Shown one piece after another: positions 3,720-35,485 of a stretch of DNA of 35,772 bases. Origin of the DNA: a virus (taxonomy: Duplodnaviria; Heunggongvirae; Uroviricota; Caudoviricetes); the IMG/VR virus record IMGVR_UViG_2565956714_000004. One strand, 5' to 3'. The translations under genes were made by a program, and so were the position numbers. Each line of letters starts with the position of its first letter. The first letter of the stretch is position 1. The notes below the pieces were generated by a model. That model worked only from the letters and a program-made list of their open reading frames with translations, made no database searches and had not been told where the DNA came from.

Positions 3720-3946
3720 TGGCTGATGCAATGGATCTCGTACAGCAGCGCGTTGAAGAAGAACGCCAACGCCATATCCGTGCTGCCCGTGCCAAAACGC
3801 CGGGCGTGTCCCGCGTGCTTTGCGTTGAGTGTGAAGCGCCAATTCCGCCAGCACGCCGCCGTGCCATTCCGGGTGTGCAGCTTTGCATTACCTGTCAGGA
3901 AATCGCAGAGCTGAAAGGCAAACATTACAACGGAGGTGCTGTATGA
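3719..3946 (+). CDS. TraR/DksA-family C4 zinc-finger protein
   Basis: 75 aa with CVEC...17 aa...CITC (C-x2-C / C-x2-C) typical of phage TraR/DksA-type zinc fingers; translationally coupled on both sides. Confidence 0.6.
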   Translation: MADAMDLVQQRVEEERQRHIRAARAKTPGVSRVLCVECEAPIPPARRRAIPGVQLCITCQEIAELKGKHYNGGAV

Positions 3947-4797
3947 GCACCATCCTGAAATGGGCAGGAAATAAAACCGCCATAATGTCCGAACTGAAAA
4001 AGCATCTTCCTGCTGGCCCGCGACTGGTTGAACCTTTCGCGGGTTCCTGTGCAGTGATGATGGAGACGGATTACCCCAGCTATCTTGTTGCGGATATTAA
4101 TCCTGATTTAATCAACCTCTATAAAAAGGTTGCTGCTGATTGTGAGTCGTTTATATCTCGTGCCAGAGCTTTATTTGAGGAAGCAAACAGGGAGGTGGCT
4201 TATTACAACATAAGGCAGGAGTTTAATTACTCCACTGAAATTACTGATTTCATGAAAGCGGTATATTTCCTGTATCTCAATCGTCACGGTTACCGTGGTT
4301 TATGTCGCTATAACAAGAGCGGGCATTTCAACATTCCCTACGGTAATTATAAAAATCCGTATTTCCCTGAAAAAGAAATTCGCGCATTTGCAGAGAAAGC
4401 CCAGCGGGCAACGTTTATCTGCGCCAGCTTTGATGAAACGCTGGCGATGTTGAAGGTGGGGGATGTGGTGTATTGCGATCCGCCTTATGACGGTACGTTT
4501 TCCGGCTATCACACTGATGGTTTCACTGAAGATGATCAGTATCACCTGGCATCTATTCTTGAACATCGGTCATCAGAAGGACATCCGGTCATTGTTTCTA
4601 ACAGTAACACGTCTTTGACCCGGTCCCTTTATCGTAATTTCACTCACCACTACATCAGGGCGAAACGCAGCATCGGCGTTGCAGCGGGGGAGGGAAAATT
4701 TGCAACAGAGATGATTGCCACTAAATCTGCTAATTGGTTTAGTGCCGATTTTAGTAGGGGACGTGACTCTACTGTTATTTTCGGGGTGCAAGTGTGA
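3943..4797 (+). CDS. dam: DNA adenine methyltransferase, Dam family
   Basis: N-terminal [11 protein letters not shown]-binding motif and downstream DPPY catalytic motif; start at ATG 3943 with GGAGG RBS. Confidence 0.85.
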
Positions 4798-5624
4798 AAG
4801 AAATGCACCACGGAATTCATCATTTCCATGGGACGCCTGTCTGGGGAAGTGCTGGCGACGTTCATCGTATTGCGGTGAGCGGAGCTGGCGCTTTCGTCTC
4901 CTATGTACGACCAGATCAGATTGCGGCGTCCATTCAGCACGCTCAGGTCGTCGGCATTGATAACGGCGCATTTTCTGCATGGGTGCGTGGGCTAAAAATT
5001 AACTGGAGTGATTTTTATAAATGGCTCCTGAACTATTACCACCATCCTAAGGTCGCTTTTTTTGTCATTCCTGATGTTGTGGACGGAGGTGAACGTGACA
5101 ATGATGCCCTGATAAACGAAGTTCCGAAAATGTTCTACGGGAAGGCAACTCCCGTCTGGCATCTGCACGAGTCAATCGAGCGGCTTATCGAGCTATGTCG
5201 TGAATGGCCTCGTGTCTGCTTTGGATCGTCTGGTGAATATGCGGCTATCAGAACTGCGCACTGGCATCGTCGTATGCAGGACGCTTTTGAAGCAATTTAT
5301 TGCCGACACAATTTCAAAACAGCTGTTCATGGTTTGCGCATGCTTGACGGTCGTGTGTTGGGAAATTACCCACTGGCGACTGCCGACAGTACAAATCTTG
5401 CCTGCAATGTCCCCAAATTTAATAGCAAATATCCTGAGCTGACGCGGGCTATTCAGGAGGCTGAGTATTCGCGCAATCTGACGGAAAAGGAGCTGAAAGC
5501 TGTCATTCTGAAAAACCGTTGCGCAATTTTAAAAGGTGCAATTGAAGCTGTTCGCCCACCTTCAGTTTCTGATTGGCTGTCGAATGGTTTGCAGCCTTCA
5601 CAGCTCGAACTGGAGATTGCGTAA
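4794..5624 (+). CDS. unknown protein with TGT (queuine tRNA-ribosyltransferase)/DpdA-like motifs, 276 aa
   Basis: GTG 4794 overlaps the dam stop (alternative ATG at 4803). HGTPVWGS near the N-terminus and VGIDNGAFS resemble the TGT substrate motifs (TP-F-PVGT and D-S-G-G-F-Q); no CxCxxC zinc motif. Assignment tentative. Confidence 0.45.
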
Positions 5625-7996
5625 TGAGCTACAGCTATTCCTGGAATGCTGAGAAAAAAGCAATCAATCCTTACGTAGAGACAGAAGAGCAATCTTCAGT
5701 TTCTGCGCTTTCAAACCTGATCGCTCTGTACGCTGCCGATAACGAGCAGGAACAGCTGCGCCGCGAGGCACTGAGTGATCAGGTCTGGGAGCGTTATTTC
5801 TTTAATGAATCCCGTGATCCTGTCCAGCGCGAAATGGAGCAGGATAAGCTCATTAGTCGGGCAAAGCTGGCGCATGAGCAGCAGCGTTTTAATCCAGATA
5901 TGGTCATTCTGGCGGACGTCAATGCCCAGCCTTCCCATATCAGCAAGCCGCTGATGCAACGTATTGAATACTTCAGCAGCCTGGGCAGGCCAAAGGCTTA
6001 TTCCCGCTATTTGCGTGAGACGATTAAGCCATGTCTGGAACGGCTGGAGCATGTACGCGACTGTCAGCTATCCACTTCTTTTCGCTTTATGGCAAGCCAT
6101 GAAGGGCTGGACGGCCTGCTGATCCTGCCTGAAATGAGTCAGGATCAGGTGAAACGCCTGTCCACCCTGGTAGCTGCGCATATGAGCATGTGCCTTGATG
6201 CAGCTTGTGGCGATTTGTATGTCACCGATGACGTTAAGCCAGAAGAAATCCGCAAGACATGGGAAAAGGTGGCAGCGGAAACCCTGCGTCTGGATGTCAT
6301 CCCGCCTGCGTTTGAGCAACTCCGCCGGAAAAGAAACCGCCGTAAACCCGTGCCCTATGAACTCATTCCGGGTTCGCTGGCGCGTATGTTGTGCGCTGAC
6401 TGGTGGTACCGGAAATTATGGAAGATGCGTTGCGAATGGCGGGAAGAGCAGTTGCGTGCTGTCTGCCTGGTCAGCAAAAAAGCATCTCCCTATGTCAGCT
6501 ATGAAGCCGTGATGCATAAACGTGAGCAGCGCCGTAAGTCGCTGGAGTTTTTTCGTTCTCATGAACTGGTGAACGAAGACGGCGACACGCTGGACATGGA
6601 GGATGTGGTAAACGCCAGCAGCAGCAACCCTGCGCATCGCCGCAATGAGATGATGGCCTGTGTTAAAGGCCTGGAGCTTATCGCGGAAATGCGCGGTGAC
6701 TGCGCCGTTTTCTACACCATCACCTGTCCGTCACGTTTCCATTCCACGCTAAATAATGGCAGGCCCAACCCAACTTGGACAAATGCGACGGTAAGACAAA
6801 GCAGTGATTATCTGGTCGGCATGTTTGCTGCATTTCGTAAGGCGATGCACAAAGCCGGATTGCGGTGGTATGGCGTGCGGGTGGCTGAGCCGCATCATGA
6901 CGGTACAGTTCACTGGCACCTGTTGTGTTTTATGCGCAAAAAAGACCGCCGCGCCATCACTGCATTACTGCGTAAGTTTGCCATCCGTGAAGACCGCGAG
7001 GAACTGGGCAATAACACTGGGCCGCGTTTTAAGTCTGAGTTGATTAACCCGCGCAAAGGTACGCCAACAAGCTACATCGCGAAATACATCAGTAAGAACA
7101 TTGACGGGCGTGGTCTGGCTGGCGAGATCAGCAAGGAAACGGGGAAATCCCTGCGTGATAATGCTGAATACGTTAATGCCTGGGCGTCTTTGCATCGTGT
7201 TCCGCAATTCCGCTTCTTTGGCATTCCGGGGCGTCAGGCTTACCGTGAACTGCGATTGCTGGCTGGTCAGGCGGCAAGGCAACAGGGGGACAAAAAAGCA
7301 GGTGCGCCGGTACTGGATAACCCGCGCCTTGATGCCATCCTGGCTGCTGCTGATGCTGGTTGTTTTGCCACCTACATCATGAAGCAGGGCGGCGTACTGG
7401 TTCCCCGCAAATATCACCTCATCAGAACCGCTTATGAAATCAACGAAGAGCCGACCGCCTATGGCGATCACGGCATTCGTATTTATGGCATCTGGTCACC
7501 TATTGCAGAGGGCAAGATCTGCACTCATGCCGTGAAGTGGAAAATGGTTCGTAAGGCCGTTGATGTTCAGGAGGCGGCAGCCGACCAGGGCGCTTGCGCC
7601 CCTTGGACTCGTGGCAATAACTGTCCCCTTGCTGAAAATTTGAACCAGCAGGAGAAAGATAAATCAGCTGATGGGGACACCAGAACGGACATTACCCGCA
7701 TGGATGACAAGGAGTTGCACGATTATCTGCACAGTATGAGCAAAAAAGAGCGCCGGGAACTGGCTGCAAGGTTACGCCTGGTTAAGCCGAAACGGCGTAA
7801 AGACTACAAACAGCGAATTACAGATCATCAGCGACAGCAGCTCGTCTATGAACTGAAGTCCAGAGGATTTGATGGCAGCGAGAAAGAGGTCGATTTACTC
7901 CTTCGCGGTGGCAGTATTCCGTCAGGAGCAGGCCTGCGTATCTTCTATCGGAACCAGCGTTTGCAGGAAGATGATAAGTGGCGGGATCTGTATTAA
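5624..7996 (+). CDS. A: replication initiator (gpA rolling-circle endonuclease)
   Basis: [15 protein letters not shown] (HUH metal-binding motif) and [14 protein letters not shown] (active-site Tyr region) match P2 gpA; start at ATG 5624 (TAATG overlap with upstream stop). Confidence 0.85.
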
Positions 7997-8147: not shown

Positions 8148-8336
8148 ATGCAGGACTATTTTTTGGAGTCTTTGAAGCTCCAGCGCATTGATTTTTTTCT
8201 TAAGCTTGTAGCGGCTAGTGAGTGTAGTGATGAAGAGAAGGGGCTGGCTTTGCAGTGGGTTTCTGAACTAACAGATGAACTCATGGCAAAAATCAGAACC
8301 CACGAATACAACCGCTCAATGGATGTCATCAGCTGA
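8148..8336 (+). CDS. small SOS-regulated protein, possible Tum-like antirepressor component (62 aa)
   Basis: ORF immediately downstream of LexA box with AGGAGG RBS; same position as the 186 tum locus. Confidence 0.45.
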   Translation: MQDYFLESLKLQRIDFFLKLVAASECSDEEKGLALQWVSELTDELMAKIRTHEYNRSMDVIS

Positions 8337-8346
8337 GGTGACTTTT

Positions 8347-8580
8347 ATGCGCATTGAAATAATGATCGATAAAGAGCAGAAGATTAGCCAGTCTACCCTG
8401 GACGCCCTTGAATCCGAGCTTTACCGCAATCTGCGCCCCCTGTATCCCAAAACGGTAATTCGTATCCGTAAAGGTAGCTCTAACGGTGTGGAACTGACTG
8501 GACTGCAACTGGACGAAGAAAGGAAGCAAGTGATGAAAATTATGCAGAAGGTGTGGGAAGACGACAGCTGGCTGCATTAA
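8347..8580 (+). CDS. DinI-family protein
   Basis: MRIEIMIDKEQ...LDALESELYRNL...KIMQKVWEDDSW follows the DinI pattern (MRIEV ... W-x-D-W C-terminus); RBS GAGGTG. Confidence 0.7.
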   Translation: MRIEIMIDKEQKISQSTLDALESELYRNLRPLYPKTVIRIRKGSSNGVELTGLQLDEERKQVMKIMQKVWEDDSWLH

Positions 8581-8714
8581 GAAACGTTGCTGGCGTCTGA
8601 ACTTGTTTCTGGCGTCAGCAAGGTTGAACAACGAGCCCTTGTGAGGCGTTAGCTCTGTAGTGCATGTCTATGCCGCATGAGATCGCATGATCGTTTGAGG
8701 ATCGTTTTTGCTAA

Positions 8715-8740
8715 GGCCCGCCAGAACTGGCGGGCTTTTG
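8715..8740 (+). terminator. rho-independent terminator (GCCCGCCAG-aact-CTGGCGGGC + TTTTG)
   Basis: 9-bp GC-rich perfect stem, 4-nt loop, followed by T-run; downstream of the DinI-like gene. Confidence 0.55.
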
Positions 8741-8784
8741 CGTAGATCATGCAGGTGCATGAAAACCACTACATAAAGCGGGCA

Positions 8785-8803
8785 GGCGTGGCGGGGATAC
8801 GAG
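8785..8803. other. cos: candidate cos site (GGCGTGGCGGGGATACGAG)
   Basis: First 13 nt match the 186 cohesive end and resemble the P2 cohesive end, as I recall them; located between replication and packaging modules. Confidence 0.45.
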
Positions 8804-8958
8804 CGCGCGCAAGCTGGTACCATTATGTTGTTGGATTTCCGAAGTAGACCAGTTATGCCGTTTCTTCGTTAGGCTACTAGTAGCTGTGTGGATAATCTAA
8901 TATACTGAAAGAATGATTGTTCGTGCCAAATGGCGCATGAATTGTTCAGGAGGATAAA

Positions 8959-9654
8959 ATGGAATTATTATTTCAAAATTACCAAGCATCATATTTTACA
9001 AACAATTCTGATGTCACTGCTACACCGCCAGTGCTTTCGATGCTGTTGTCTAATTTGGCTGCGTTATCCCTTTTACCCATGTTTGGGCAGGAGTTGAATG
9101 CTTTAACAGGGGAAAAGCGTCAAATAGTTATTATGACTTCGCCTGACCAAAATTTTCGGGTTGAATTTCCCTTGGGGGCTATTGTCTTTCATGGAGTCGG
9201 CGGTTCCAGTGAAGAGTTCATAAATAAAGTTAAAGATATTATGAAGTCTTTACAGTCAATATTCCCTAATAAAAAAGCGACAAGACTGTCAGTTATTAAT
9301 TCATATTTTTATCATGATAGTCAGGATAATTACTCCAGGCTTTACAGAGAGCTATTCACTCATCGTAATGCAGAACCATTTGAATGGGATAATCGTATTG
9401 TTGAGCGAGTCAATTTGAAAAATTTAAATGAGAGTGTGAATAGTGGGAGTACTGTTCGTCGTTGTTTCATTCAGACTCCATTAGTAAATAATAATCATCC
9501 AACAGAAGTAATAAACTTTGAGGTGGATACAAATACATTGGCAGAAAATAATTCGCTTCGGTTTGATTTTAATTCTGCGAACTCTATTGTTAGTGAGTTG
9601 CAAGAAAATAATGCCAATTTAATTGAGCAATTATCTCGTTATACGAATAAGTGA
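8959..9654 (+). CDS. hypothetical protein, cargo operon gene 1 (231 aa)
   Basis: Long ORF in strongly AT-rich DNA, AGGAGG RBS; no recognisable motifs. Confidence 0.6.
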   Translation: MELLFQNYQASYFTNNSDVTATPPVLSMLLSNLAALSLLPMFGQELNALTGEKRQIVIMTSPDQNFRVEFPLGAIVFHGVGGSSEEFINKVKDIMKSLQSIFPNKKATRLSVINSYFYHDSQDNYSRLYRELFTHRNAEPFEWDNRIVERVNLKNLNESVNSGSTVRRCFIQTPLVNNNHPTEVINFEVDTNTLAENNSLRFDFNSANSIVSELQENNANLIEQLSRYTNK

Positions 9655-9661
9655 GGCTGCC

Positions 9662-10321
9662 ATGGATAAAAATTATGGAAATATAATTTTGTCTGAGGCT
9701 TCGTCAGAAGTTAACACTATTATTAATGATAATAACTTTGACCGTTTTTTGGTTAACTCATCAGTATCTGATAACTCAAAAAAATTATCCTCTTATGTAG
9801 CTAACGATATTAGAATAAATTCAAATAAAACAGCAGTTCAAGCTGGCTCGTTTTTTTTGAAAAAAATTGATGATTCAAATAATTCTTTTGAAAGCATAGT
9901 CATTAAAAAACAAAAAATGACTATGAGTTTACTATTTTCAGAAGATTATGTTGAAGGTGAAATCACTAAGACTCAACTTTATCTTGAAGGCCTTTACAAA
10001 GAAAATTCATTTGTTTTTAGGGAGGTTTTTCAACGGGTTTGGTTAGACCTCTTTCGCAATAAAAATACGTATGAATTACGAAATTTCATATGTGTTGCAT
10101 CTTGCTTAGAATATGAAATTCTTGGTGATAAGGCTGATGCTATCATATTGGCTGCATCGGTTTATGATGATAAATATGTAAATGAAGCAGCTCTGCGTGC
10201 GGCAGAAGGATGGGGCAATCCACAACTTGCACTATATCTAAATGGAATAAGAGATTTTGGAATAAGTTGGTTGGATAATTATAAAAAATCTGTCATAGAC
10301 TATTTGGGACGCATGCAATGA
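9662..10321 (+). CDS. hypothetical protein, cargo operon gene 2 (219 aa)
   Basis: ORF starting 7 nt after gene 1 stop with GAGG RBS; AT-rich; no recognisable motifs. Confidence 0.6.
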   Translation: MDKNYGNIILSEASSEVNTIINDNNFDRFLVNSSVSDNSKKLSSYVANDIRINSNKTAVQAGSFFLKKIDDSNNSFESIVIKKQKMTMSLLFSEDYVEGEITKTQLYLEGLYKENSFVFREVFQRVWLDLFRNKNTYELRNFICVASCLEYEILGDKADAIILAASVYDDKYVNEAALRAAEGWGNPQLALYLNGIRDFGISWLDNYKKSVIDYLGRMQ

Positions 10322-10842
10322 GTTATTTGTTAAGAAAAATATCAATTGCAAAATGGGAACCTAACTTAACATTGCAGCCTGATAATTTTTCAGGCGATGC
10401 TATTACTGGGTGTACACGAACAAAGAATAATACTCTTTCTGTTTGGGCTTCAGATTCAATTGACTTTACCACAGAGGATGTCGAGAAAATCGTTGTTGCA
10501 TTAGCTACAACTATGTCCTCGCCTGATATCATTGATCTTATTTGGTTGGATGAGGACTGGCTTAGAGAAAATGGTGTTCAGATAGCTAACAATCCGGGGC
10601 AAAGTAAGTTTGAAGCTGTAAATCCTATGCATAGGGATTTAGTCGCTATTGACCATCGACAACTTGCAATAGTTGGACAACATATAGTAGAGCAATATAA
10701 TGCAAATCCTGAACTGTATTATAAGCGTTATTCTAGGCCAGAAATTATAGCTTTGGTTCATAAATGGTTGACAAAAAATAATACATTTAAGCTAGAGGAT
10801 TTGCATGAGAAATGGGTAAAGCCTCTTGATAAAATAAAATGA
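10318..10842 (+). CDS. hypothetical protein, cargo operon gene 3 (174 aa)
   Basis: ATGA start/stop overlap with gene 2 (translational coupling); AT-rich; no recognisable motifs. Confidence 0.6.
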   Translation: MSYLLRKISIAKWEPNLTLQPDNFSGDAITGCTRTKNNTLSVWASDSIDFTTEDVEKIVVALATTMSSPDIIDLIWLDEDWLRENGVQIANNPGQSKFEAVNPMHRDLVAIDHRQLAIVGQHIVEQYNANPELYYKRYSRPEIIALVHKWLTKNNTFKLEDLHEKWVKPLDKIK

Positions 10843-10856
10843 CACTTTTGTGTCAT
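10839..10856. terminator. possible bidirectional terminator hairpin (ATGACAC-tttt-GTGTCAT)
   Basis: 7-bp inverted repeat flanked by T/A runs between the convergent cargo operon and portal gene. Confidence 0.3.
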
Positions 10857-10865
10857 TTGTATATT

Positions 10866-11897
10866 TTATTTTAGGTCATAAGGAATGAACTTAATGAGTT
10901 CACATCCAACAAACTCATTAAGTTCTTCTATTCTTTTCTGAAGCGGGAGCAATTCATTACGTACGAATACCTTACTGGCCTTCTCCACATCCCCAAACCC
11001 CCCGACATTATTAGGCATTATCCCCATCATTTGTGGCGGCACACGATGCGCCGCCATCATGTCGTCCCGGCTCACGTTCTTGATATTCAGGAACTCATCC
11101 TTCGCCGCCACTTCTGACAACGGGATAATCTGAAGCCCGTCCTTTTTGCCGTTAGGCGAGTACATAAACAGGTTGCGGAAGTTACCCGGTCCTTTGGCGC
11201 TTTTCATCGCGTTGCGGAGGTTGTTCACGTCCTCCTGGTTCTGCGCGGCATCGGTCATGTACATGATGAAGCCCGCATGACTGCCGTTAATGTAATACTT
11301 GCGACGGAACAGCGTGGCGGACTCATTGAGCAGGGCTGACGGAATAGCAGAAAGATAGCCGGGCAGGCCATAGATCTCCTGATTTATGTCCGGTTCCATC
11401 AGATGGAAAATGCTGCCTTTCGTGAACTGATACGGCTGCGTGGTCATGCCGTATTGCACAAACCAGTAGGTATCCAGGTCTAAACCGCGTCGGGTGTATT
11501 TTGCCAGCGCAGGTTCAAGGGCGATAACTTCACCGAAGCGGTTCGTGCGTTTCTCCAGATAGGCGTTACCAAATACCAGATAGTCCTGTACAAAACGCGA
11601 AAAAGCCTGTTGGCTGAGCAGCGGATGAGGGATATAGGTACTGGTCAGAATGTTGCACTTTACTGCAATCGGGGAACTGTGATGCACGGCAGCGCGGAAG
11701 GTGCGCGCCAGTCCGTCAAAGCTGACGGGCGGCTCATACCAACGGTCCATCTGTACGCATTCCACATAGTCCAGTAATTCTCGGCGGTCCAGAACTGGAA
11801 CGGGATCGCCGAAGCTGAATGCTTCGGCTGTAGTCTGGTTTTTATGCTGGATCTGATTCGTCGCCGCAGTGCGGTTTTTCTTACTCTTTCCCATCAA
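10866..11897 (-). CDS. Q: portal protein (gpQ)
   Basis: 343 aa, size and position as P2 gpQ, immediately downstream of and overlapping the terminase large subunit gene. Confidence 0.85.
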   Translation of the reverse strand: MMGKSKKNRTAATNQIQHKNQTTAEAFSFGDPVPVLDRRELLDYVECVQMDRWYEPPVSFDGLARTFRAAVHHSSPIAVKCNILTSTYIPHPLLSQQAFSRFVQDYLVFGNAYLEKRTNRFGEVIALEPALAKYTRRGLDLDTYWFVQYGMTTQPYQFTKGSIFHLMEPDINQEIYGLPGYLSAIPSALLNESATLFRRKYYINGSHAGFIMYMTDAAQNQEDVNNLRNAMKSAKGPGNFRNLFMYSPNGKKDGLQIIPLSEVAAKDEFLNIKNVSRDDMMAAHRVPPQMMGIMPNNVGGFGDVEKASKVFVRNELLPLQKRIEELNEFVGCELIKFIPYDLK

Positions 11898-13660
11898 AAA
11901 ATCTCCACAATATTGCTGGTATTGGCGGACTCGCCCTGCAGCGGTTCGTTAAACAGTGCGTGCATCGTTGCCCAGGCCAGATCGGCGTGGCTGGCTTCTT
12001 CGCTGCGGCTGGCTTCATAGGTTGGGCGGTTGCCACTGGCGGTGGTTGCGCGACGGATTGCCATGAATGACTGCGCAATGTCGGTGTGCCCGGCGTCAAA
12101 CTCCAGACGGCGGTGGCTGATAATGTCGTAGGCCTTGAGTACCAGGGCGTTTTTAACGTTGGGGTTGTAGACAAACTCCCTGACGGCAGGAAAAAACGCT
12201 TTCACGTTCTCGTAAACCCCGTGACCGACGCCGGTCGAGTCGATGCCGATATAGGCCACGTTATACTGTTCGGTCAGTTTTTTGATGGCGTCAGCCTGGG
12301 CGCGGAAGTCCATTCCGCGCCACTGGTGACGCTCAAGAATGCGGAACTTACCGCCCGGCACGGCTGGCGGTGCCACCACCACGCATCCGGCGCTGTCGCC
12401 GTTCTGCGTACCTTTTGCCGGGTCATAACCGATCCACACTTCGCGCCAGCCAAACGGGCGCAGGGCCAGTGCATGAAAGTCGGTCCAGACTTCCCAACTG
12501 TCCACCATACACGCCTGCAGCTCGCTGAGCGGGAACACGGACGCGAGATCGTCCACGAACTCACACATCAGCAGGTTCTGGTATTCGTCCGGGCTGTATT
12601 CCATGCGCAACTGGTCAAGGTCGAACAGGTTACAGCCGCCGCGCACCGCATCTTCTACGGTGACTATCTGGCGGTATTGCCCGTCTGCGCACAGCAGGCC
12701 GGGGGCCAGATTGCTGTGGGACAGGTCGATGTCCACCTTATCGGCTTTGTTGCGCCCACGGTTGAACAGCGCACCGGACCAGAACGGATAAGCACTGTGT
12801 GTCAGGCTGGATGGCGTGGAAAAATAGGTTTGTCGCCATTTTTTGTGGATAGCCATACCGGAAGCCACTTTGCGCAGCTCCTGGAATTTCGGTATCCAGA
12901 AATATTCATCCAGATACAGGTTGCCGTGGTAACTCTGGGCCGTGCGGGCATTGGTGCCGAGGAAGTAAAGCGTGGCCCCGTTAGGAAGCACCATCGGATC
13001 GCCTTTCAGCTCCACCTCCACTTCTTTGGCGAAGTCGATGATGTACTGTTTAAAGACGTGGGCCTGTGCCTTACTGGCGGAAAGGAAAATCTGGTTACGT
13101 CCGGTAAGCAGGGCGTCAATCAGGGCTTCACGGGCAAAGTAAAAGGTCGCGCCGATCTGGCGTGACTTCAGCAGGTTGCGGATGCGGTTGGTTTTTCCGG
13201 CTTCCCACCAGTGGCGCTGGTAGTTGAACATGGAGGAATGGAAAATTTCTTCCAGCTTCTCAATCTGTTCATCGGTGAAAACATTCTTTTCCGGCTGACG
13301 GCGCGGGCCTTTGTTGCGGTTGGCGACGTTTGGGTTTAAGTCGGCTTCGTTGCCGCCATTGTTAAACTTGCCGATCCGCGCGTGGCGTTCCGATTGGCGC
13401 GCCAGCAGGTCAATCTCTTTGAAATCTTTCCCTTCTTTGTGCTCCTTCATAATGAGCTGGCAGTAGCGTGCGGCGGTGGTGAGCTGCATCTGATCCAGCG
13501 GCCCATAGTCACCCCACTTGTCGCGTTTTTTCCAGCTGTGAACGGTTGCAACTTTCTCGCCCAGCATTTCAGCAATGCGGGCTACGCGGTATCCCTGAAA
13601 GTACAGCAGCATGGCCTGCCGACGGGGATCGAGATCTGCGGGTGTCAGTGTGGTGTTCAT
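11894..13660 (-). CDS. P: terminase large subunit / ATPase (gpP)
   Basis: 588 aa, P2 gpP-like size and position; divergent from the O-N-M-L capsid operon. Confidence 0.85.
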   Translation of the reverse strand: MNTTLTPADLDPRRQAMLLYFQGYRVARIAEMLGEKVATVHSWKKRDKWGDYGPLDQMQLTTAARYCQLIMKEHKEGKDFKEIDLLARQSERHARIGKFNNGGNEADLNPNVANRNKGPRRQPEKNVFTDEQIEKLEEIFHSSMFNYQRHWWEAGKTNRIRNLLKSRQIGATFYFAREALIDALLTGRNQIFLSASKAQAHVFKQYIIDFAKEVEVELKGDPMVLPNGATLYFLGTNARTAQSYHGNLYLDEYFWIPKFQELRKVASGMAIHKKWRQTYFSTPSSLTHSAYPFWSGALFNRGRNKADKVDIDLSHSNLAPGLLCADGQYRQIVTVEDAVRGGCNLFDLDQLRMEYSPDEYQNLLMCEFVDDLASVFPLSELQACMVDSWEVWTDFHALALRPFGWREVWIGYDPAKGTQNGDSAGCVVVAPPAVPGGKFRILERHQWRGMDFRAQADAIKKLTEQYNVAYIGIDSTGVGHGVYENVKAFFPAVREFVYNPNVKNALVLKAYDIISHRRLEFDAGHTDIAQSFMAIRRATTASGNRPTYEASRSEEASHADLAWATMHALFNEPLQGESANTSNIVEIF

Positions 13661-23632: not shown

Positions 23633-24234
23633 TGGATAACGCCGTATTAAATAGCGAGCTTATTGCCACGAAGGCGGGGAATATTACCGTCTATAACTAT
23701 GATGGTAAAACTCGGGAATATATTTCTACTTCAAATGAATATCTTGCCATTGGTGTCGGTATCCCTGCATATTCCTGTCTGGATGAACCTGGTATACATA
23801 AGGCGGGTTATGCTATCTGCCGTTCGATGGATTTAAACTCATGGGAATATGTGCCAGACCATCGCGGTGAAATCGTCTATAACACCGAAACGGGAGACGC
23901 CAAAGAAATCACAGCTCCGGGTGATTATCCTGAAAATACAACCACTATCGCCCCGTTAACGCCATTCGATAAATGGGATGGTAAGAAATGGGTGACCGAT
24001 ACTGAGGCACAGCATAGCGCCGCAGTAGACGCGGCAGAAGTACAGCGTCAGTCACTGATTAATACTGCAATGGCTTCCATTAGTCTGATTCAACTTAAAT
24101 TGCAGGCCGGGCGGAAGCTGATGCAGGCAGAGACCACCCGACTTAACACTGTGCTGGATTACATTGACGCGGTGACGGCAACAGATACCAGCACAGCGCC
24201 GGATGTCATCTGGCCTGAACTGCCGGAGGCGTAG
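23632..24234 (+). CDS. G: tail fiber assembly protein (gpG/Tfa), currently expressed copy
   Basis: 200 aa; C-terminal LDYIDAV...DTS..PDV.WPELP typical of Tfa chaperones. Confidence 0.8.
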   Translation: MDNAVLNSELIATKAGNITVYNYDGKTREYISTSNEYLAIGVGIPAYSCLDEPGIHKAGYAICRSMDLNSWEYVPDHRGEIVYNTETGDAKEITAPGDYPENTTTIAPLTPFDKWDGKKWVTDTEAQHSAAVDAAEVQRQSLINTAMASISLIQLKLQAGRKLMQAETTRLNTVLDYIDAVTATDTSTAPDVIWPELPEA

Positions 24235-24643
24235 GCCATTCAATATCTGGCACACTGGAGGTATCAACCAGCTCCAGTGCGTCCAGGTAATCCAGCCACA
24301 AATTATATTGCGCCAGTTCCTCGTCTTTCAGACGACCAATAGCGGCTTTACCGGGCCATTGTTTACTGTTCATGTATTCGTTGGCCTGATTAAGCAATAA
24401 TTGCCTTTCTGATTCTGCCTGTTGAATAAGTTCTTCATGTGATGGTGGAGGTATTAGTGCCCATGTGGGTAATCCATTTTCTCCTGCAACACGAATTTTG
24501 CCATCTGGGGGCGTATTTATTGCAAATTCATTATAAACATCATCACTGACAGCCAGAGCATCATCTGGCCATGAATTTGCATTAATGTAATCATCCTTAA
24601 GTGCAGGATTCACAAAAATGTTTAAAGATGGACTATAAAACAT
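24206..24643 (-). CDS. alternative tail fiber assembly protein (Tfa') in invertible segment
   Basis: 145 aa with the same conserved C-terminal motif (WLDYLDAL...DTSSVPDIEWP); convergent with G. Confidence 0.75.
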   Translation of the reverse strand: MFYSPSLNIFVNPALKDDYINANSWPDDALAVSDDVYNEFAINTPPDGKIRVAGENGLPTWALIPPPSHEELIQQAESERQLLLNQANEYMNSKQWPGKAAIGRLKDEELAQYNLWLDYLDALELVDTSSVPDIEWPTPPAVQAR

Positions 24644-24644
24644 A

Positions 24645-24992
24645 TTACACCCCTATAGCGATATAACGACCTAATACAGCGTTTGCAGCAGTCGCTATGC
24701 TTGAAAAACCGCGGAACTGATTTGATGTAATTGCAGAAGCCGACAGGATTCCTGCACCTGAAGGTGTATGCCCCACATGACTAACTATCATTCCATAACA
24801 TGCTGACGGAAAGGCAAAAGGAAAATCATTAAGATATCCGGCATCTTCACCACCAGACCCACCAAATCTCGCCTGCCCCCACTGAATAATCAGTGTTCTC
24901 CGGGAACCTGAAATAATTAACGGAATCGTTACATACCCATTCAGACCAATGACACCCGATGCAGTGCCAGCCAGAGATAATTCTCCCAAACC
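24645..24992 (-). CDS. alternative tail fiber variable C-terminal segment (silent until inversion)
   Basis: Minus-strand frame encodes VGLGELS at the crossover site, paralleling LGLGEGS in H at the other site; no independent start expected. Confidence 0.65.
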   Translation of the reverse strand, partial: GLGELSLAGTASGVIGLNGYVTIPLIISGSRRTLIIQWGQARFGGSGGEDAGYLNDFPFAFPSACYGMIVSHVGHTPSGAGILSASAITSNQFRGFSSIATAANAVLGRYIAIGV

Positions 24993-25006
24993 AACGTTTA
25001 AGAAAA
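24981..25006. repeat. invertase crossover site, right: TTCTCCCAAACC-AA-CGTTTAAGAAAA
   Basis: Inverted copy of the site in H; 2-bp cores are complementary, as required for inversion. Confidence 0.7.
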
Positions 25007-25061
25007 TGCAGAGGTAACAGCTAACTGGCATCATCCCCGGTTTTTAGTCAGGGGGATAATC

Positions 25062-25628
25062 ATGCTTATTGGCTATGTACGCGTGTCAACAAATGACCAG
25101 AACACCGATTTGCAACGTAATGCACTGAACTGCGCGGGATGTGAGCGGATTTTTGAGGATAAAATCAGTGGCACTAAGTCCGACAGACCGGGGCTGAAAA
25201 AACTGCTCAGGACACTATCGGCAGGAGACACGCTGGTTGTCTGGAAGCTAGACAGGTTGGGGCGCAGTATGCGGCATCTTGTTACGCTGATAGAAGAGTT
25301 GCGTCAGCGTGGCGTGAATTTCCGAAGCCTGACTGACAGTATTGATACCAGCACCCCAATGGGCCGTTTCTTTTTTCATGTCATGGGAGCCCTGGCTGAA
25401 ATGGAACGCGAACTGATAGTTGAACGTACCAGGGCAGGGCTGGCTGCAGCTCGTGCCAAAGGCAGAGTAGGTGGACGCCGTCCTAAGTTGACCACTGAAC
25501 AGTGGGCACAGATTGGACGTTTACTCGAGGCCGGAGAATCAAGACAGCGTATTGCACTGATTTTTGATGTAGGCGTTTCTACCATTTATAGAAAATTTCC
25601 GGCAAATAAGAGCAATGAATCCCCCTGA
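25062..25628 (+). CDS. serine DNA invertase (Gin/Hin/Pin/Cin family)
   Basis: MLIGYVRVSTNDQNTDLQ (catalytic Ser motif) and C-terminal HTH GVSTIYRKF; 188 aa. Confidence 0.9.
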   Translation: MLIGYVRVSTNDQNTDLQRNALNCAGCERIFEDKISGTKSDRPGLKKLLRTLSAGDTLVVWKLDRLGRSMRHLVTLIEELRQRGVNFRSLTDSIDTSTPMGRFFFHVMGALAEMERELIVERTRAGLAAARAKGRVGGRRPKLTTEQWAQIGRLLEAGESRQRIALIFDVGVSTIYRKFPANKSNESP

Positions 25629-33152: not shown

Positions 33153-34838
33153 TTATCCTAATCCTGGCCATACCATGACGATGATTGTCCCTGCCAGCGT
33201 CAGCAGGACGTTGGCGATTGCATAGGTGCCCGCATAGCCCAGCGCCGGGATGTTACTGCGAGCTGTATCACTGATGATCTCCATTGCCGGCGCGCAGGTA
33301 CGTGCGCCCATCATTGCGCCGAACAACAGCGCGCGGTTCATTCGCAATACATAAGCACCGAACAAGAAACAGATAACCACGGGCACCAGACTGACAATCA
33401 ATCCGGCAATCAACATCTGACCGCCAATCGCGCCCAAGCCGTTATTAATACCGCTACCGGCGCTCAGACCAACGCCTGCCATAAACACCATCAAGCCGAA
33501 CTCTTTCACCATGCTTAATGCACCCTGCGGAATGTAACCGAAGGTCGGGTGGTTAGCACGCATAAAGCCCAGCATAATTCCGGCGAATAACAACCCGGCA
33601 GCGTTCCCCATGCCGAAACTGAATGTGCTGAACTGGAAGGTGATCATCCCGATCATCAGCCCAATAACAAAGAAGGCGCAAAATGCCAGCAGGTCAGTGA
33701 CCTGGCTGTGAATCGAGATAAAGCCGATGCGATCGGCGATGGTTTTTACGCGACGGGCATCACCGCTGACTTGTAAAACGTCACCTTTGTTAAGCACGAC
33801 GTTGTCATCTATCGGCATCTCAATCTGGCTACGAATGACGCGGTTAAGGAAGCAACCGTGATCGGTCAACTTCAGTTGTGCGAGACGTTTACCTACAGCG
33901 TTATGGTTTTTAACGACCACTTCTTCAGTGACGATACGCATGTCGAGAAGGTCACGATCGAAAACTTCTTTACCGTTACGGAAGCTGGGATCGAGTCGGG
34001 CATGGGCGTCGGGATAGCCTACCAACGCTATTTCATCGCCCATTTGTAGCACGGCATCACCGTCTGGATTTGCCAGAATCCCGTTACGTCGAATACGTTC
34101 AATGTAGCAGCCGGTTTGTCGATAAATACCCAGTTCACGCAGATTTTTGCCGTCGGTCCAGGCCACCAGCTCCGGGCCGACGCGATAGGCGCGGATCACC
34201 GGTAAATAAACCTTACGGTTGGCATCAGTGTCCAGGCCACGTTCGCGGGCGATTTGCTGGGCGCTGGTCTGTAAGTCCTGATGCTGCAATTTCGGCAAGT
34301 AACGCGCACCAACAATCAAACTCACCAGACCGATTAAATAGGTTAAGGCATACCCGAGGCTCAGATTATCCAGTGCCAGTGAGAGCTGCCTGCTTTCCAT
34401 GCCGGAATGACGCAGTGTATCGCCAGCACCGACCAGAACCGGTGTCGACGTCATAGAGCCTGCTAACATACCGGCCGTCAGGCCAATATCCCAGCCAAAC
34501 AGCTTACCTAACCCTAAGGCGATCACCAGCGCACTGCCAACCATCACCAGTGCTAACATTAGGTAATTTTTCCCATCGCGAAAAAAAATGGAAAAAAAGT
34601 TCGGTCCGGCTTCAACCCCAACACAGAAAATAAACAGCATAAAGCCAAGATTAAGCGCATCGGTGTTAATGCTGAAATGTTGTTGGCCTAATAACAGCGA
34701 TACGACTAAAACGCCAATGGAATTACCCAGTTGGATCGAACCAAGTCGTAACTTTCCGAGACATAGCCCAAGCGCGAGGACCACAAATAATAACAGAATG
34801 TAATTCCCATTTAACAATTCGGCGACGTTTATATTCAC
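33153..34838 (-). CDS. ybjL: putative transport protein YbjL (AAE-family transporter with TrkA-C domains)
   Basis: 561-aa polytopic membrane protein; I recognise the sequence as E. coli YbjL, and ybjM/grxA follow as in the host chromosome. Confidence 0.85.
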
Positions 34839-35107
34839 GGAGGCTAACTTCTTGTTTACTAGTAAGCTGTTGAAAGAAATGGTAATTTACGATAATGTTT
34901 TTTACCAGAATTCAGGGCGCAGATTCATTCAGCGCACCTAAACGATAGTAAAGTAACAATATATTTTACTAGTGTAATCACATTAGGTATCAACGGCTAT
35001 ATGAATTGCGTTGGCCTATATTAGCATGGAATGCGAAGCGGCTTTATCTTACTGAACGCCACACTGGCGAAAAATGTGTTCGATAGACGCAGTGTCAGGA
35101 GGAACGA

Positions 35108-35485
35108 GTGAAACATAAACAACGTTGGGCGGGGGCAATCTGCTGTTTTGTCCTCTTCATTGTGGTGTGCCTTTTTCTGGCGACGCACATGAAAGGCGCT
35201 TTTCGGGCTGCCGGGCATCCTGAAATCGGCTTGCTATTTTTCATTCTTCCTGGAGCAGTCGCCAGCTTCTTTTCACAGCGTAGAGAAGTCCTGAAACCTC
35301 TTTTTGGCGCAATGCTGGCGGCACCCTGTTCGATGCTCATTATGCGGCTGTTTTTTTCACCGACGCGCTCATTCTGGCAAGAGCTGGCATGGTTATTAAG
35401 TGCGGTGTTCTGGTGTGCGCTGGGGGCACTGTGTTTCTTATTTATCAGTAGTTTGTTTAAACCACAGCACAGAAAAAATCAGTAA
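35108..35485 (+). CDS. ybjM: inner membrane protein YbjM
   Basis: 125-aa hydrophobic protein, position between ybjL and grxA. Confidence 0.75.
   Translation: MKHKQRWAGAICCFVLFIVVCLFLATHMKGAFRAAGHPEIGLLFFILPGAVASFFSQRREVLKPLFGAMLAAPCSMLIMRLFFSPTRSFWQELAWLLSAVFWCALGALCFLFISSLFKPQHRKNQ

What the first reader, a model, noticed from the sequence alone, without database searches (positions are those of the whole stretch)
8959..10842. AT-rich three-gene operon of unrecognisable proteins between the cos-like site and the portal gene: candidate undescribed anti-phage or accessory system
Three co-oriented ORFs (231, 219 and 174 aa) form a tight operon with a 7-nt gap and an ATGA overlap. The DNA is markedly AT-rich (about 30% GC by eye) against the GC-balanced phage backbone, indicating foreign origin. 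The operon is wedged between the cos-like site/SOS module and the 3' end of the portal gene, on the opposite strand to the packaging genes. In P2-like phages the cos-proximal region is where old, tin and other defence systems are carried. None of the three proteins shows a motif I can recognise (no Walker A, no clear nuclease or HTH signature).
Basis: partly seen in the sequence, partly recalled or inferred. Interest (0 to 1): 0.85.

Follow-up and report, generated by a model that had tools for sequence, protein, structure and literature searches.

The report
Untested three-gene prophage defence candidate
A real, AT-rich, three-gene cargo operon sits in the known defence hotspot of a P2/186-like prophage; it belongs to a widespread, always-together gene trio found on phages, small plasmids and chromosomal islands that has been flagged by a machine-learning predictor but never tested, and its third protein looks weakly like an ADP-ribosyltransferase-type enzyme.

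Summary
Three co-oriented genes (A 8959-9654, B 9662-10321, C 10318-10842) have a 7-nt gap and an ATGA overlap. They are 34% GC against 52% for the rest of the window and lie between the cos core and the portal gene of a complete 186/P2-family prophage.

They are variable cargo, not core phage genes. Only 2 of 5,426 complete E. coli genomes carry this DNA, while 1,277 share the adjacent cos flank.

All 39 first-round related loci keep A, B and C adjacent and in order, and so do all later ones. The contexts are P2 hotspots, lambdoid and Acinetobacter prophages, 4-7 kb plasmids and chromosomal islands.

None of the three proteins matches Pfam, NCBIfam, PADLOC 2.0 or PDB sequences. The trio is unrelated to Rousset's '3HP' and to DefensePredictor's DS-21. 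Protein B is listed in DefensePredictor's table of predicted but untested defence genes.

Predicted folds:

Best reading: a new, uncharacterised abortive-infection or toxin-antitoxin-like defence module. The mechanism is inferred, not shown.

The parts
8785..8803 (.). P2/186-type cos core, the left boundary of the variable hotspot
   Evidence: GGCGTGGCGGGG at 8785-8796. The first ~120 nt of the query 8700-10900 match 1,277 E. coli genomes while the cargo does not. The same cos flank, in reverse complement, is at the start of Rousset's cloned P2-hotspot insert pFR109.
8806..8958 (+). Leader and presumed promoter region of the operon (promoter not identified)
   Evidence: No strong sigma-70 match on the + strand; the best relaxed match is TGGATA-17-AATGAT. 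Upstream regions are not conserved between cassettes in different contexts.
8948..8953 (+). Shine-Dalgarno AGGAGG for gene A
   Evidence: Read directly from the sequence, 5 nt upstream of the ATG at 8959.
8959..9654 (+). Gene A, 231 aa. Two tandem beta-alpha-beta4-alpha (TBP-like) halves forming one antiparallel sheet, with guanido-kinase/glutamine-synthetase-like fold similarity. Proposed nucleotide- or nucleic-acid-binding sensor or regulatory enzyme.
9651..9656 (+). Shine-Dalgarno GTGAGG for gene B, overlapping the stop codon of A
   Evidence: Read directly from the sequence. It supports the ATG at 9662 rather than the TTG at 9623 as the start of B.
9662..10321 (+). Gene B, 219 aa. Poorly conserved Ser/Asn-rich N-terminal ~80 residues plus a conserved, probably helical (HEAT-like) C-terminal ~135 residues. 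Proposed adaptor or antitoxin-like partner of C.
   Evidence: Residues 1-80 are 27-29% identical and 81-219 are 44-68% identical between cassettes. Invariant R179, E182, W184, Y207. Weak HEAT signals only (Pfam HEAT_2 E 0.2 in one member; HHblits probability 50-60% over 10% of B in DefensePredictor Table S10). Listed as 'Predicted novel defense gene', mean log-odds 7.04.
10318..10842 (+). Gene C, 174 aa. N-terminal ~110 residues with a weak ADP-ribosyltransferase-like fold plus a small helical C-terminal domain. Proposed enzymatic effector or toxin.
10837..10858 (.). Bidirectional terminator-like hairpin between the converging C and portal genes
   Evidence: AAATGACAC-TTTT-GTGTCATTT with T-rich tails on both strands.

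Best explanation
The operon is one member of a widespread, strictly conserved three-gene mobile module, carried here as cargo in the cos-proximal defence hotspot of a 186/P2-family prophage. Most likely it is an anti-phage system of the abortive-infection or toxin-antitoxin-like type that protects the lysogen against other phages. In the proposed mechanism, C is the enzymatic effector. It is a small protein with an ADP-ribosyltransferase-like fold whose invariant Arg (strand 1), Ser (strand 2) and His-x-Asp (strand 5), plus an invariant Cys, would form an NAD+-using or related active site. C would modify or deplete an essential target. B is translationally coupled to C. It has a conserved helical, HEAT-like domain and a fast-evolving N-terminal tail, and would hold C inactive and/or recognise the phage trigger. 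A has a TBP-like/guanido-kinase-like sheet studded with invariant Arg, Glu, Asp and Asn residues. It would bind a nucleotide or nucleic-acid cue, or catalyse a regulatory step that couples infection to release of C. Shown: the genes are real, under purifying selection, foreign, variable at this hotspot, always together, and move between phages, plasmids and chromosomal islands. Inferred: defence function, the roles of A, B and C, and NAD+ chemistry.
Confidence: 0.4

Rival explanations
1. A tripartite addiction (toxin-antitoxin-type) module whose main role is stabilising the mobile element that carries it, with no meaningful anti-phage activity. C would be the toxin, B the cognate antitoxin and A a regulator or third component.
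For: The trio occupies ~40% of tiny ColE1-type plasmids and sits on a MOBQ plasmid, where stabilisation modules are common. The B-C start/stop overlap resembles antitoxin-toxin coupling. ART-fold toxins with antitoxins (RES/MbcT, DarT) are among C's structural neighbours. Chromosomal copies lie beside other TA pairs.
Against: High-copy ColE1-type plasmids need little post-segregational killing. The preferred sites are phage cargo hotspots known for defence. Many TA modules are themselves defence systems, so this rival overlaps with the main reading. No DNA-binding antitoxin domain was detected in B.
Confidence: 0.2
2. An accessory module serving the carrier element offensively or for host manipulation rather than defence. 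Examples would be an anti-defence function, or an enzyme that modifies host proteins or nucleic acids, as the ADP-ribosyltransferases Alt, ModA and ModB of phage T4 do (established knowledge).
For: Phage-encoded ART enzymes exist, and the ART-like fold lead for C is compatible with this. The cassette is frequently on temperate phages.
Against: The same trio occurs on small plasmids and in chromosomal islands with no phage genes nearby, which fits a self-sufficient cellular function better than a phage life-cycle function. In a survey of 1,511 P2-like elements, anti-defence genes were found in only 28.
Confidence: 0.12
3. Conserved core genes of P2/186-like phages, or chance ORFs or decaying remnants with no function.
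For: None beyond the location inside a prophage.
Against: The DNA is present in 2 of 5,426 E. coli genomes while the flank is in 1,277. No deposited phage record holds this DNA. ORF lengths never occurred in 2,000 shuffles, and dN/dS is 0.14-0.30. Full-length homologues exist in distant taxa.
Confidence: 0.01

Closest known systems
Rst_3HP, the 'hp + hp + hp' P2-hotspot system of Rousset et al. 2022 (E. coli E1114, plasmid pFR109, protects against P1)
   Same: Same hotspot, cos-proximal between gpA/DinI and the portal gene of a P2-like prophage. Three co-oriented genes without recognisable domains.
   Different: Proteins of 333, 359 and 227 aa against 231, 219 and 174 aa here. BLASTP finds no similarity (best E 0.82). 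It is a different system that happens to share a site and a gene count.
CmdTAC (tripartite toxin-antitoxin-chaperone system with an mRNA ADP-ribosyltransferase toxin; known to me from the literature, not read here)
   Same: It is the nearest working analogy to the proposed mechanism: three genes, an ART-fold effector held in check by partner proteins, and release on infection.
   Different: No PADLOC hit of any kind for A, B or C. No SecB-like chaperone signal in A's fold search. Gene sizes and order differ. The resemblance is one of logic, not of family.
DarTG and RES-Xre/MbcTA (ART-fold toxin with antitoxin)
   Same: DarT, RES and MbcT are among C's top structural neighbours. The toxin gene is adjacent to a partner gene.
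   Different: No macrodomain or Xre partner. No sequence-profile match to DarT or RES. There are three components rather than two. C's candidate catalytic residues (R, S, HxD, C) differ from the H-Y-E and R-E-S sets (those sets are from established knowledge).
McsB protein-arginine kinase and phosphagen kinases (for protein A)
DefensePredictor 'uncharacterized clusters' (Science 2026, Table S10)
   Same: Protein B of this operon (WP_077625515.1) and the B of the second E. coli allele (WP_000240425.1) are listed there as predicted novel defence genes.
   Different: That list holds single-gene predictions without experiments. The three-gene unit, its distribution and the folds of A and C are not described there. 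The tested set (Table S6) does not include it, and DS-21, the tested trio of hypothetical proteins, is unrelated.

Membership tests
Rst_3HP (Rousset 2022) | Sequence homology to the three validated proteins | tested here: not met
   BLASTP of A, B and C against hp1-3: best E 0.82. Sizes are 333/359/227 aa against 231/219/174 aa.
Rst_3HP (Rousset 2022) | Location in the P2 gpA-gpQ cos-proximal hotspot | tested here: met
   Location alone does not define the family.
Any system in PADLOC-DB 2.0.0 (including PD-T4-9/CmdTAC, DarTG, PDC and HEC candidates as far as they are in that release) | HMM match of at least one component | tested here: not met
   No hit at E of 1 or less for A, B or C. Only noise for divergent members. 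Newer DefenseFinder or PADLOC releases could not be run.
DefensePredictor DS-21 (validated trio of hypothetical proteins) | Same proteins or architecture | tested here: not met
   DS-21 proteins are 365, 140 and 211 aa with a PD-(D/E)XK LmuA-like effector.
ADP-ribosyltransferase superfamily (protein C) | ART split-sheet fold | tested here: inconclusive
ADP-ribosyltransferase superfamily (protein C) | Catalytic triad positions: R/H on strand 1, S/Y on strand 2, E/D/Q on strand 5 | tested here: inconclusive
   Invariant R6 (strand 3-8), S41 (strand 38-45) and H105-x-D107 (strand 105-111). The order and strand assignment fit, but the canonical Glu is replaced and I could not inspect coordinates to confirm that the residues line one cleft.
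ADP-ribosyltransferase superfamily (protein C) | Sequence-profile match to a described ART family | tested here: not met
   No Pfam, NCBIfam or PDB-profile hit. No consistent weak hit across 29 members.
ADP-ribosyltransferase superfamily (protein C) | NAD+ binding and ADP-ribosyl transfer or NADase activity | not testable with these tools
   Requires biochemistry.
Phosphagen / protein-arginine kinase (Pfam ATP-gua_Ptrans) (protein A) | Catalytic-domain fold | tested here: met
Phosphagen / protein-arginine kinase (Pfam ATP-gua_Ptrans) (protein A) | Sequence-profile homology and the CPxN[IL]GT signature | tested here: not met
   No Pfam hit. hhalign of 154 A-family sequences against a McsB/AK/CK alignment gave probability 0.06 (the McsB sequence was verified against PDB 8wtb). 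The signature is absent from A.
TIGR04255 family (protein A) | NCBIfam model score above the cut-off (30 bits) | tested here: not met
   A itself has no hit. One distant relative, P0193, scores 23.2 bits, E 5e-5, below the cut-off.
HEAT-repeat proteins (protein B) | Profile match to HEAT repeats, or a helical-repeat structure | tested here: inconclusive
   Pfam HEAT_2 E 0.2 in 1 of 8 members. HHblits probability 50-60% over ~10% of B in DefensePredictor Table S10.
Type II toxin-antitoxin modules | Adjacent, translationally coupled small genes | tested here: met
   B and C share an ATGA overlap and A and B are 7 nt apart. The adjacency is conserved in all loci.
Type II toxin-antitoxin modules | Toxicity of one component neutralised by another | not testable with these tools
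   Requires expression experiments.
Anti-phage defence systems in general | Reduced phage plating or abortive infection when the system is expressed | not testable with these tools
   Only contextual support and an ML prediction.

The most novel reading that the evidence does not exclude
The trio is a new family of anti-phage immune system, widespread in Gammaproteobacteria and in AT-rich metagenomic lineages. A TBP-like/guanido-kinase-fold protein (A) senses infection or generates a nucleotide-type signal. A small ART-fold enzyme (C) with an unprecedented Arg-Ser-His-x-Asp(+Cys) active site executes the response. An adaptor (B) with a hypervariable tail sets trigger specificity. None of the three protein families has been linked to immunity before.
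Probability: 0.2. Interest if true: 0.75.

Novelty: new variant of a known kind. Interest (0 to 1): 0.55.

Why it matters
If the trio is confirmed as a defence system, three protein families of unknown function would gain a role: A alone has at least 515 clusters at 50% identity. The module spreads on P2-like and lambdoid prophages, Acinetobacter phages and very small plasmids of clinically relevant Enterobacterales and Acinetobacter, where it could affect phage-therapy host range. It would also add an unusual ART-like active site, and a guanido-kinase/TBP-like sensor, to the known immune toolkit. It is compact (1.9 kb) and therefore easy to test. It is, however, one of about a thousand predicted, untested E. 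coli candidates, and finding unknown cargo in this hotspot is expected rather than surprising.

Tried and rejected
1. Identity with Rousset's 3HP system: rejected by BLASTP and protein sizes.
2. Identity with DefensePredictor DS-21: rejected.
3. The YgjP-like metallopeptidase hit for C (E 0.018): present in 1 of 29 members and C has no HExxH motif, so I treat it as chance.
4. The HTH_70 hit for A (E 0.0065, below cut-off): not pursued, and A's fold is not HTH.
5. My by-eye motif match between A and phosphagen kinases (ExxxR, N...R, DxNT): rejected as evidence after hhalign gave probability 0.06.
7. The AFDB50 fold library was unavailable.
8. A shared promoter or operator travelling with the cassette: upstream regions are not alignable.
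9. A Cys-His-Asp hydrolase reading for C (C32, H105, D107): considered, but no papain-like or NlpC-like structural neighbours appeared. It is not excluded.
10. Literature searches for the protein accessions, the PHROG ids, TIGR04255, McsB-like defence proteins, and ART+HEAT tripartite systems found nothing relevant.
11. PDB sequence-profile searches for A, B and C found nothing meaningful.

Full report
**Observation.** The three ORFs exist as described:
- A: 8959-9654, 231 aa.
- B: 9662-10321, 219 aa from the ATG. An upstream TTG at 9623 would give 232 aa, but a GTGAGG ribosome-binding site at 9651-9656 favours the ATG.
- C: 10318-10842, 174 aa.

A and B are 7 nt apart. B and C overlap by ATGA. 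A is preceded by AGGAGG (8948-8953). The operon ends in a hairpin (10837-10858) shared with the converging portal gene.

GC is 34.1% against 52.3% for the rest of the window. Open frames this long never arose in 2,000 shuffles of the region (maximum 164 codons against 232, 231 and 185 observed). dN/dS against divergent cassettes is 0.14-0.30 wherever dS is not saturated. The genes are therefore real and under purifying selection.

**Setting.** The window is a complete 186/P2-family prophage inserted next to host ybjL/ybjM. Its landmarks are:
- integrase 1-1131 and CI repressor 1447-2022;
- Dam methylase 3883-4797;
- gpA replication protein 5573-7996;
- DinI 8275-8580;
- cos core GGCGTGGCGGGG at 8785;
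- portal 10866-11897 and terminase 11894-13660 on the minus strand;
- head, lysis and tail genes, including an invertible tail-fibre segment.

The operon occupies the gpA-gpQ cos-proximal site. Rousset et al. 2022 showed this site to be a hotspot holding old, tin and many other defence systems. The cos flank here matches, in reverse complement, the flank of their cloned hotspot inserts.

**Cargo, not core.**
- Megablast of 8700-10900 against 5,426 complete E. coli genomes finds the first ~120 nt (the cos side) in 1,277 genomes. The cargo itself is in only 2.
- No deposited phage record holds the cargo DNA.
- A second allele of the same trio (C 56% identical) sits at the same site of similar prophages in 4 other genomes.
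- A third allele is frequent in Klebsiella pneumoniae P2-like prophages.

**An obligate, mobile trio.** Homologues of C led to loci in many contexts:
- Pantoea P2-like prophages;
- Citrobacter and Serratia lambdoid prophages, just after the replication genes;
- chromosomal sites immediately downstream of gyrB in marine Gammaproteobacteria, next to an IS3 element or RelE-type TA genes;
- Oceanisphaera, Microbulbifer, Kushneria and a Vibrio MAG;
- 15 IMG/VR viral contigs.

In 39 of 39 of these loci, local HMM searches find A, B and C adjacent, in the same order and on the same strand.

tblastn then found the trio in further places, all verified by HMM:
- 4.4-5.0 kb ColE1-type plasmids of Klebsiella and Enterobacter, where it makes up about 40% of the replicon;
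- a 7.5-kb MOBQ Acinetobacter plasmid and a 134-kb A. lwoffii plasmid;
- the genome end of Acinetobacter temperate phages Ab105-1phi and AbTJ.

The cassette is AT-rich (34-38% GC) whatever the host flank. Its upstream leader is not conserved.

An exhaustive HMMER search with the A profile gives 515 cluster representatives at 50% identity. There is a tight core of 34, then a large family of ~245-aa proteins. All five divergent members whose contigs I could read again head trios of similar sizes (245/225/162, 248/208/163, 257/239/164, 268/237/166 and 268/222/166 aa). Their B and C are homologous to ours. The window's operon is therefore one clade of a large, strictly conserved three-component system.

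**What is known about it.**
- Pfam, NCBIfam and PADLOC-DB 2.0 give no credible hit for any of the three proteins, nor for divergent members.
- PHROGs places them in three families of unknown function.
- PDB sequence-profile searches are empty.
- The trio is not Rousset's validated 'hp+hp+hp' system.
- It is not DefensePredictor's DS-21.

Two earlier catalogues do mention parts of it. Rousset's Table S5 lists the second allele's A (WP_032235580) among 'hypothetical' P2-hotspot arrangements. DefensePredictor's Table S10 holds 1,041 predicted, untested clusters. It lists this operon's B (WP_077625515.1, mean log-odds 7.04) and the second allele's B (WP_000240425.1, 7.07) as 'Predicted novel defense gene'. 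Neither is among the 118 transcription units that study tested. Of its 94 high-scoring predictions, 42 validated. The stored copy of Table S10 is truncated, so the scores of A and C are unknown.

**Protein A.** The AlphaFold2 model is confident (pLDDT 88, pTM 0.85). Its secondary-structure string reads as two tandem beta-alpha-beta4-alpha units, the TBP-like topology.

Across 154 family members the near-invariant polar residues are E45, R109, E142, W143, R146, E158, N161, R168, D190, N192, T193 and R201. Nearly all lie on or beside sheet strands. That pattern suggests a ligand-binding or catalytic surface.

I thought I saw phosphagen-kinase motifs in A. A profile-profile test against McsB, AK and CK sequences failed (hhalign probability 0.06; the B. 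subtilis McsB sequence was verified against PDB 8wtb, while the AK and CK sequences were recalled from memory and not verified). I therefore assign only a fold class to A, not family membership.

Residues identical in all members, including the most divergent, are R6, W13, D27, T30, C32, N38, S41, W43, H105 and D107. R6, S41 and H105-x-D107 lie on the first, second and fifth strands. In R-S-E ARTs the catalytic Arg, Ser and Glu sit at these positions (established knowledge). Members of the HopF family are reported to depend on an Arg/Asp pair (my recollection, not checked here).

The C-terminal ~60 residues are helical, with weak winged-helix-like matches. The ART-like assignment is a consistent lead, not a demonstrated membership.

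**Protein B.** The first ~80 residues are Ser/Asn-rich and only 27-29% identical between cassettes. Residues 81-219 are 44-68% identical, with invariant R179, E182, W184 and Y207. HEAT-repeat signals are weak.

**Interpretation.** Six points together best fit an anti-phage, abortive-infection or toxin-antitoxin-like module:
- the hotspot position;
- rapid turnover at the site;
- strict three-gene co-inheritance;
- transfer between unrelated phages, plasmids and chromosomal islands;
- neighbours that include TA pairs and NTPase genes;
- the ML prediction.

I propose that C is the effector, B its coupled adaptor or inhibitor and possible specificity element, and A a nucleotide- or nucleic-acid-binding sensor or regulatory enzyme. 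Only the genetics and distribution are shown. Every functional step is inferred.

My probabilities are about 0.55-0.6 that the trio is a defence system of some kind, 0.4 for the explanation as stated, and about 0.2 for the fully specified new mechanism. The main rivals are a pure addiction module (0.2) and an offensive or host-manipulating accessory function (0.12). The core-gene or chance-ORF reading is refuted.

**Verdict.** This is a good, compact, testable candidate for a new defence system family. It has been partly anticipated by a catalogue entry and by an ML prediction for one gene, and it has not been characterised experimentally.

Noticed in passing
L001 10645-11786 (E. coli 210205630, NZ_CP015912.1 4600409-4601550): One of the two E. 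coli genomes carrying this exact trio has an extra minus-strand gene pair (a ComF-family phosphoribosyltransferase-like protein plus a hypothetical protein) inserted between DinI and cos. Two cargo modules therefore sit side by side in one hotspot. This recalls PRTase-containing systems such as DprA-PRTase, but it was not analysed.
   Followed up: no
window 24206-25628: Invertible tail-fibre segment. A serine invertase (Resolvase+HTH_7, 25062-25628) lies next to minus-strand ORFs for an alternative tail-fibre C-terminus (24645-25034) and a tail-fibre assembly protein (24206-24643), downstream of the plus-strand fibre genes. This suggests host-range switching by inversion.
   Followed up: partly
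L009-L011, L020 (E. coli) against window 8959-10842: Two divergent alleles of the same trio (A 42%, B 39%, C 56% identical) occupy the identical site in closely related P2-like backbones. This is an example of allele swapping within one system family at the hotspot.
   Followed up: partly
L006/L007 6650-8537 and L017 5661-7537: In two different marine gammaproteobacterial genomes the trio lies immediately downstream of gyrB (dnaA-dnaN-recF-gyrB), once with an IS3 element and once beside RelE/MqsA-like and HTH genes. This may be a chromosomal integration hotspot near the replication origin.
   Followed up: no
L041 (NZ_OW968434.1, 4,375 bp) 220-2031: On a ColE1-type Klebsiella plasmid the trio is essentially the only cargo; the other annotated genes are rop, an HTH protein, a rep fragment and a 38-aa DUF1471 fragment. 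This makes a very small natural vehicle for testing the system.
   Followed up: partly
window 9662-10842 against L001: The only four nucleotide differences in the cassette between the window and strain 210205630 are all nonsynonymous (2 in B, 2 in C, none in A). The sample is too small to interpret, but it is worth checking in more isolates.
   Followed up: no
window 9623-9661: An in-frame TTG upstream of B would extend it by 13 codons and overlap the end of A by 32 nt. The Shine-Dalgarno at 9651-9656 and the RefSeq annotation favour the ATG at 9662.
   Followed up: yes
L012-L014 5010-5268 (Klebsiella) and L020 1276-1458 (E. coli): A small ORF (85 aa; a pseudogene with an internal stop in the E. 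coli copy) lies between DinI and the trio in some P2-like prophages. It is of unknown function and overlaps the cos-side flank.
   Followed up: no
window 33153-35485: Host genes ybjL (Asp-Al_Ex/TrkA_C permease, minus strand) and ybjM mark the right end of the prophage. The same prophage type in strain 210205630 has its integrase next to rcdA/ybjJ/ybjI, which places the attachment site in the ybj region.
   Followed up: partly
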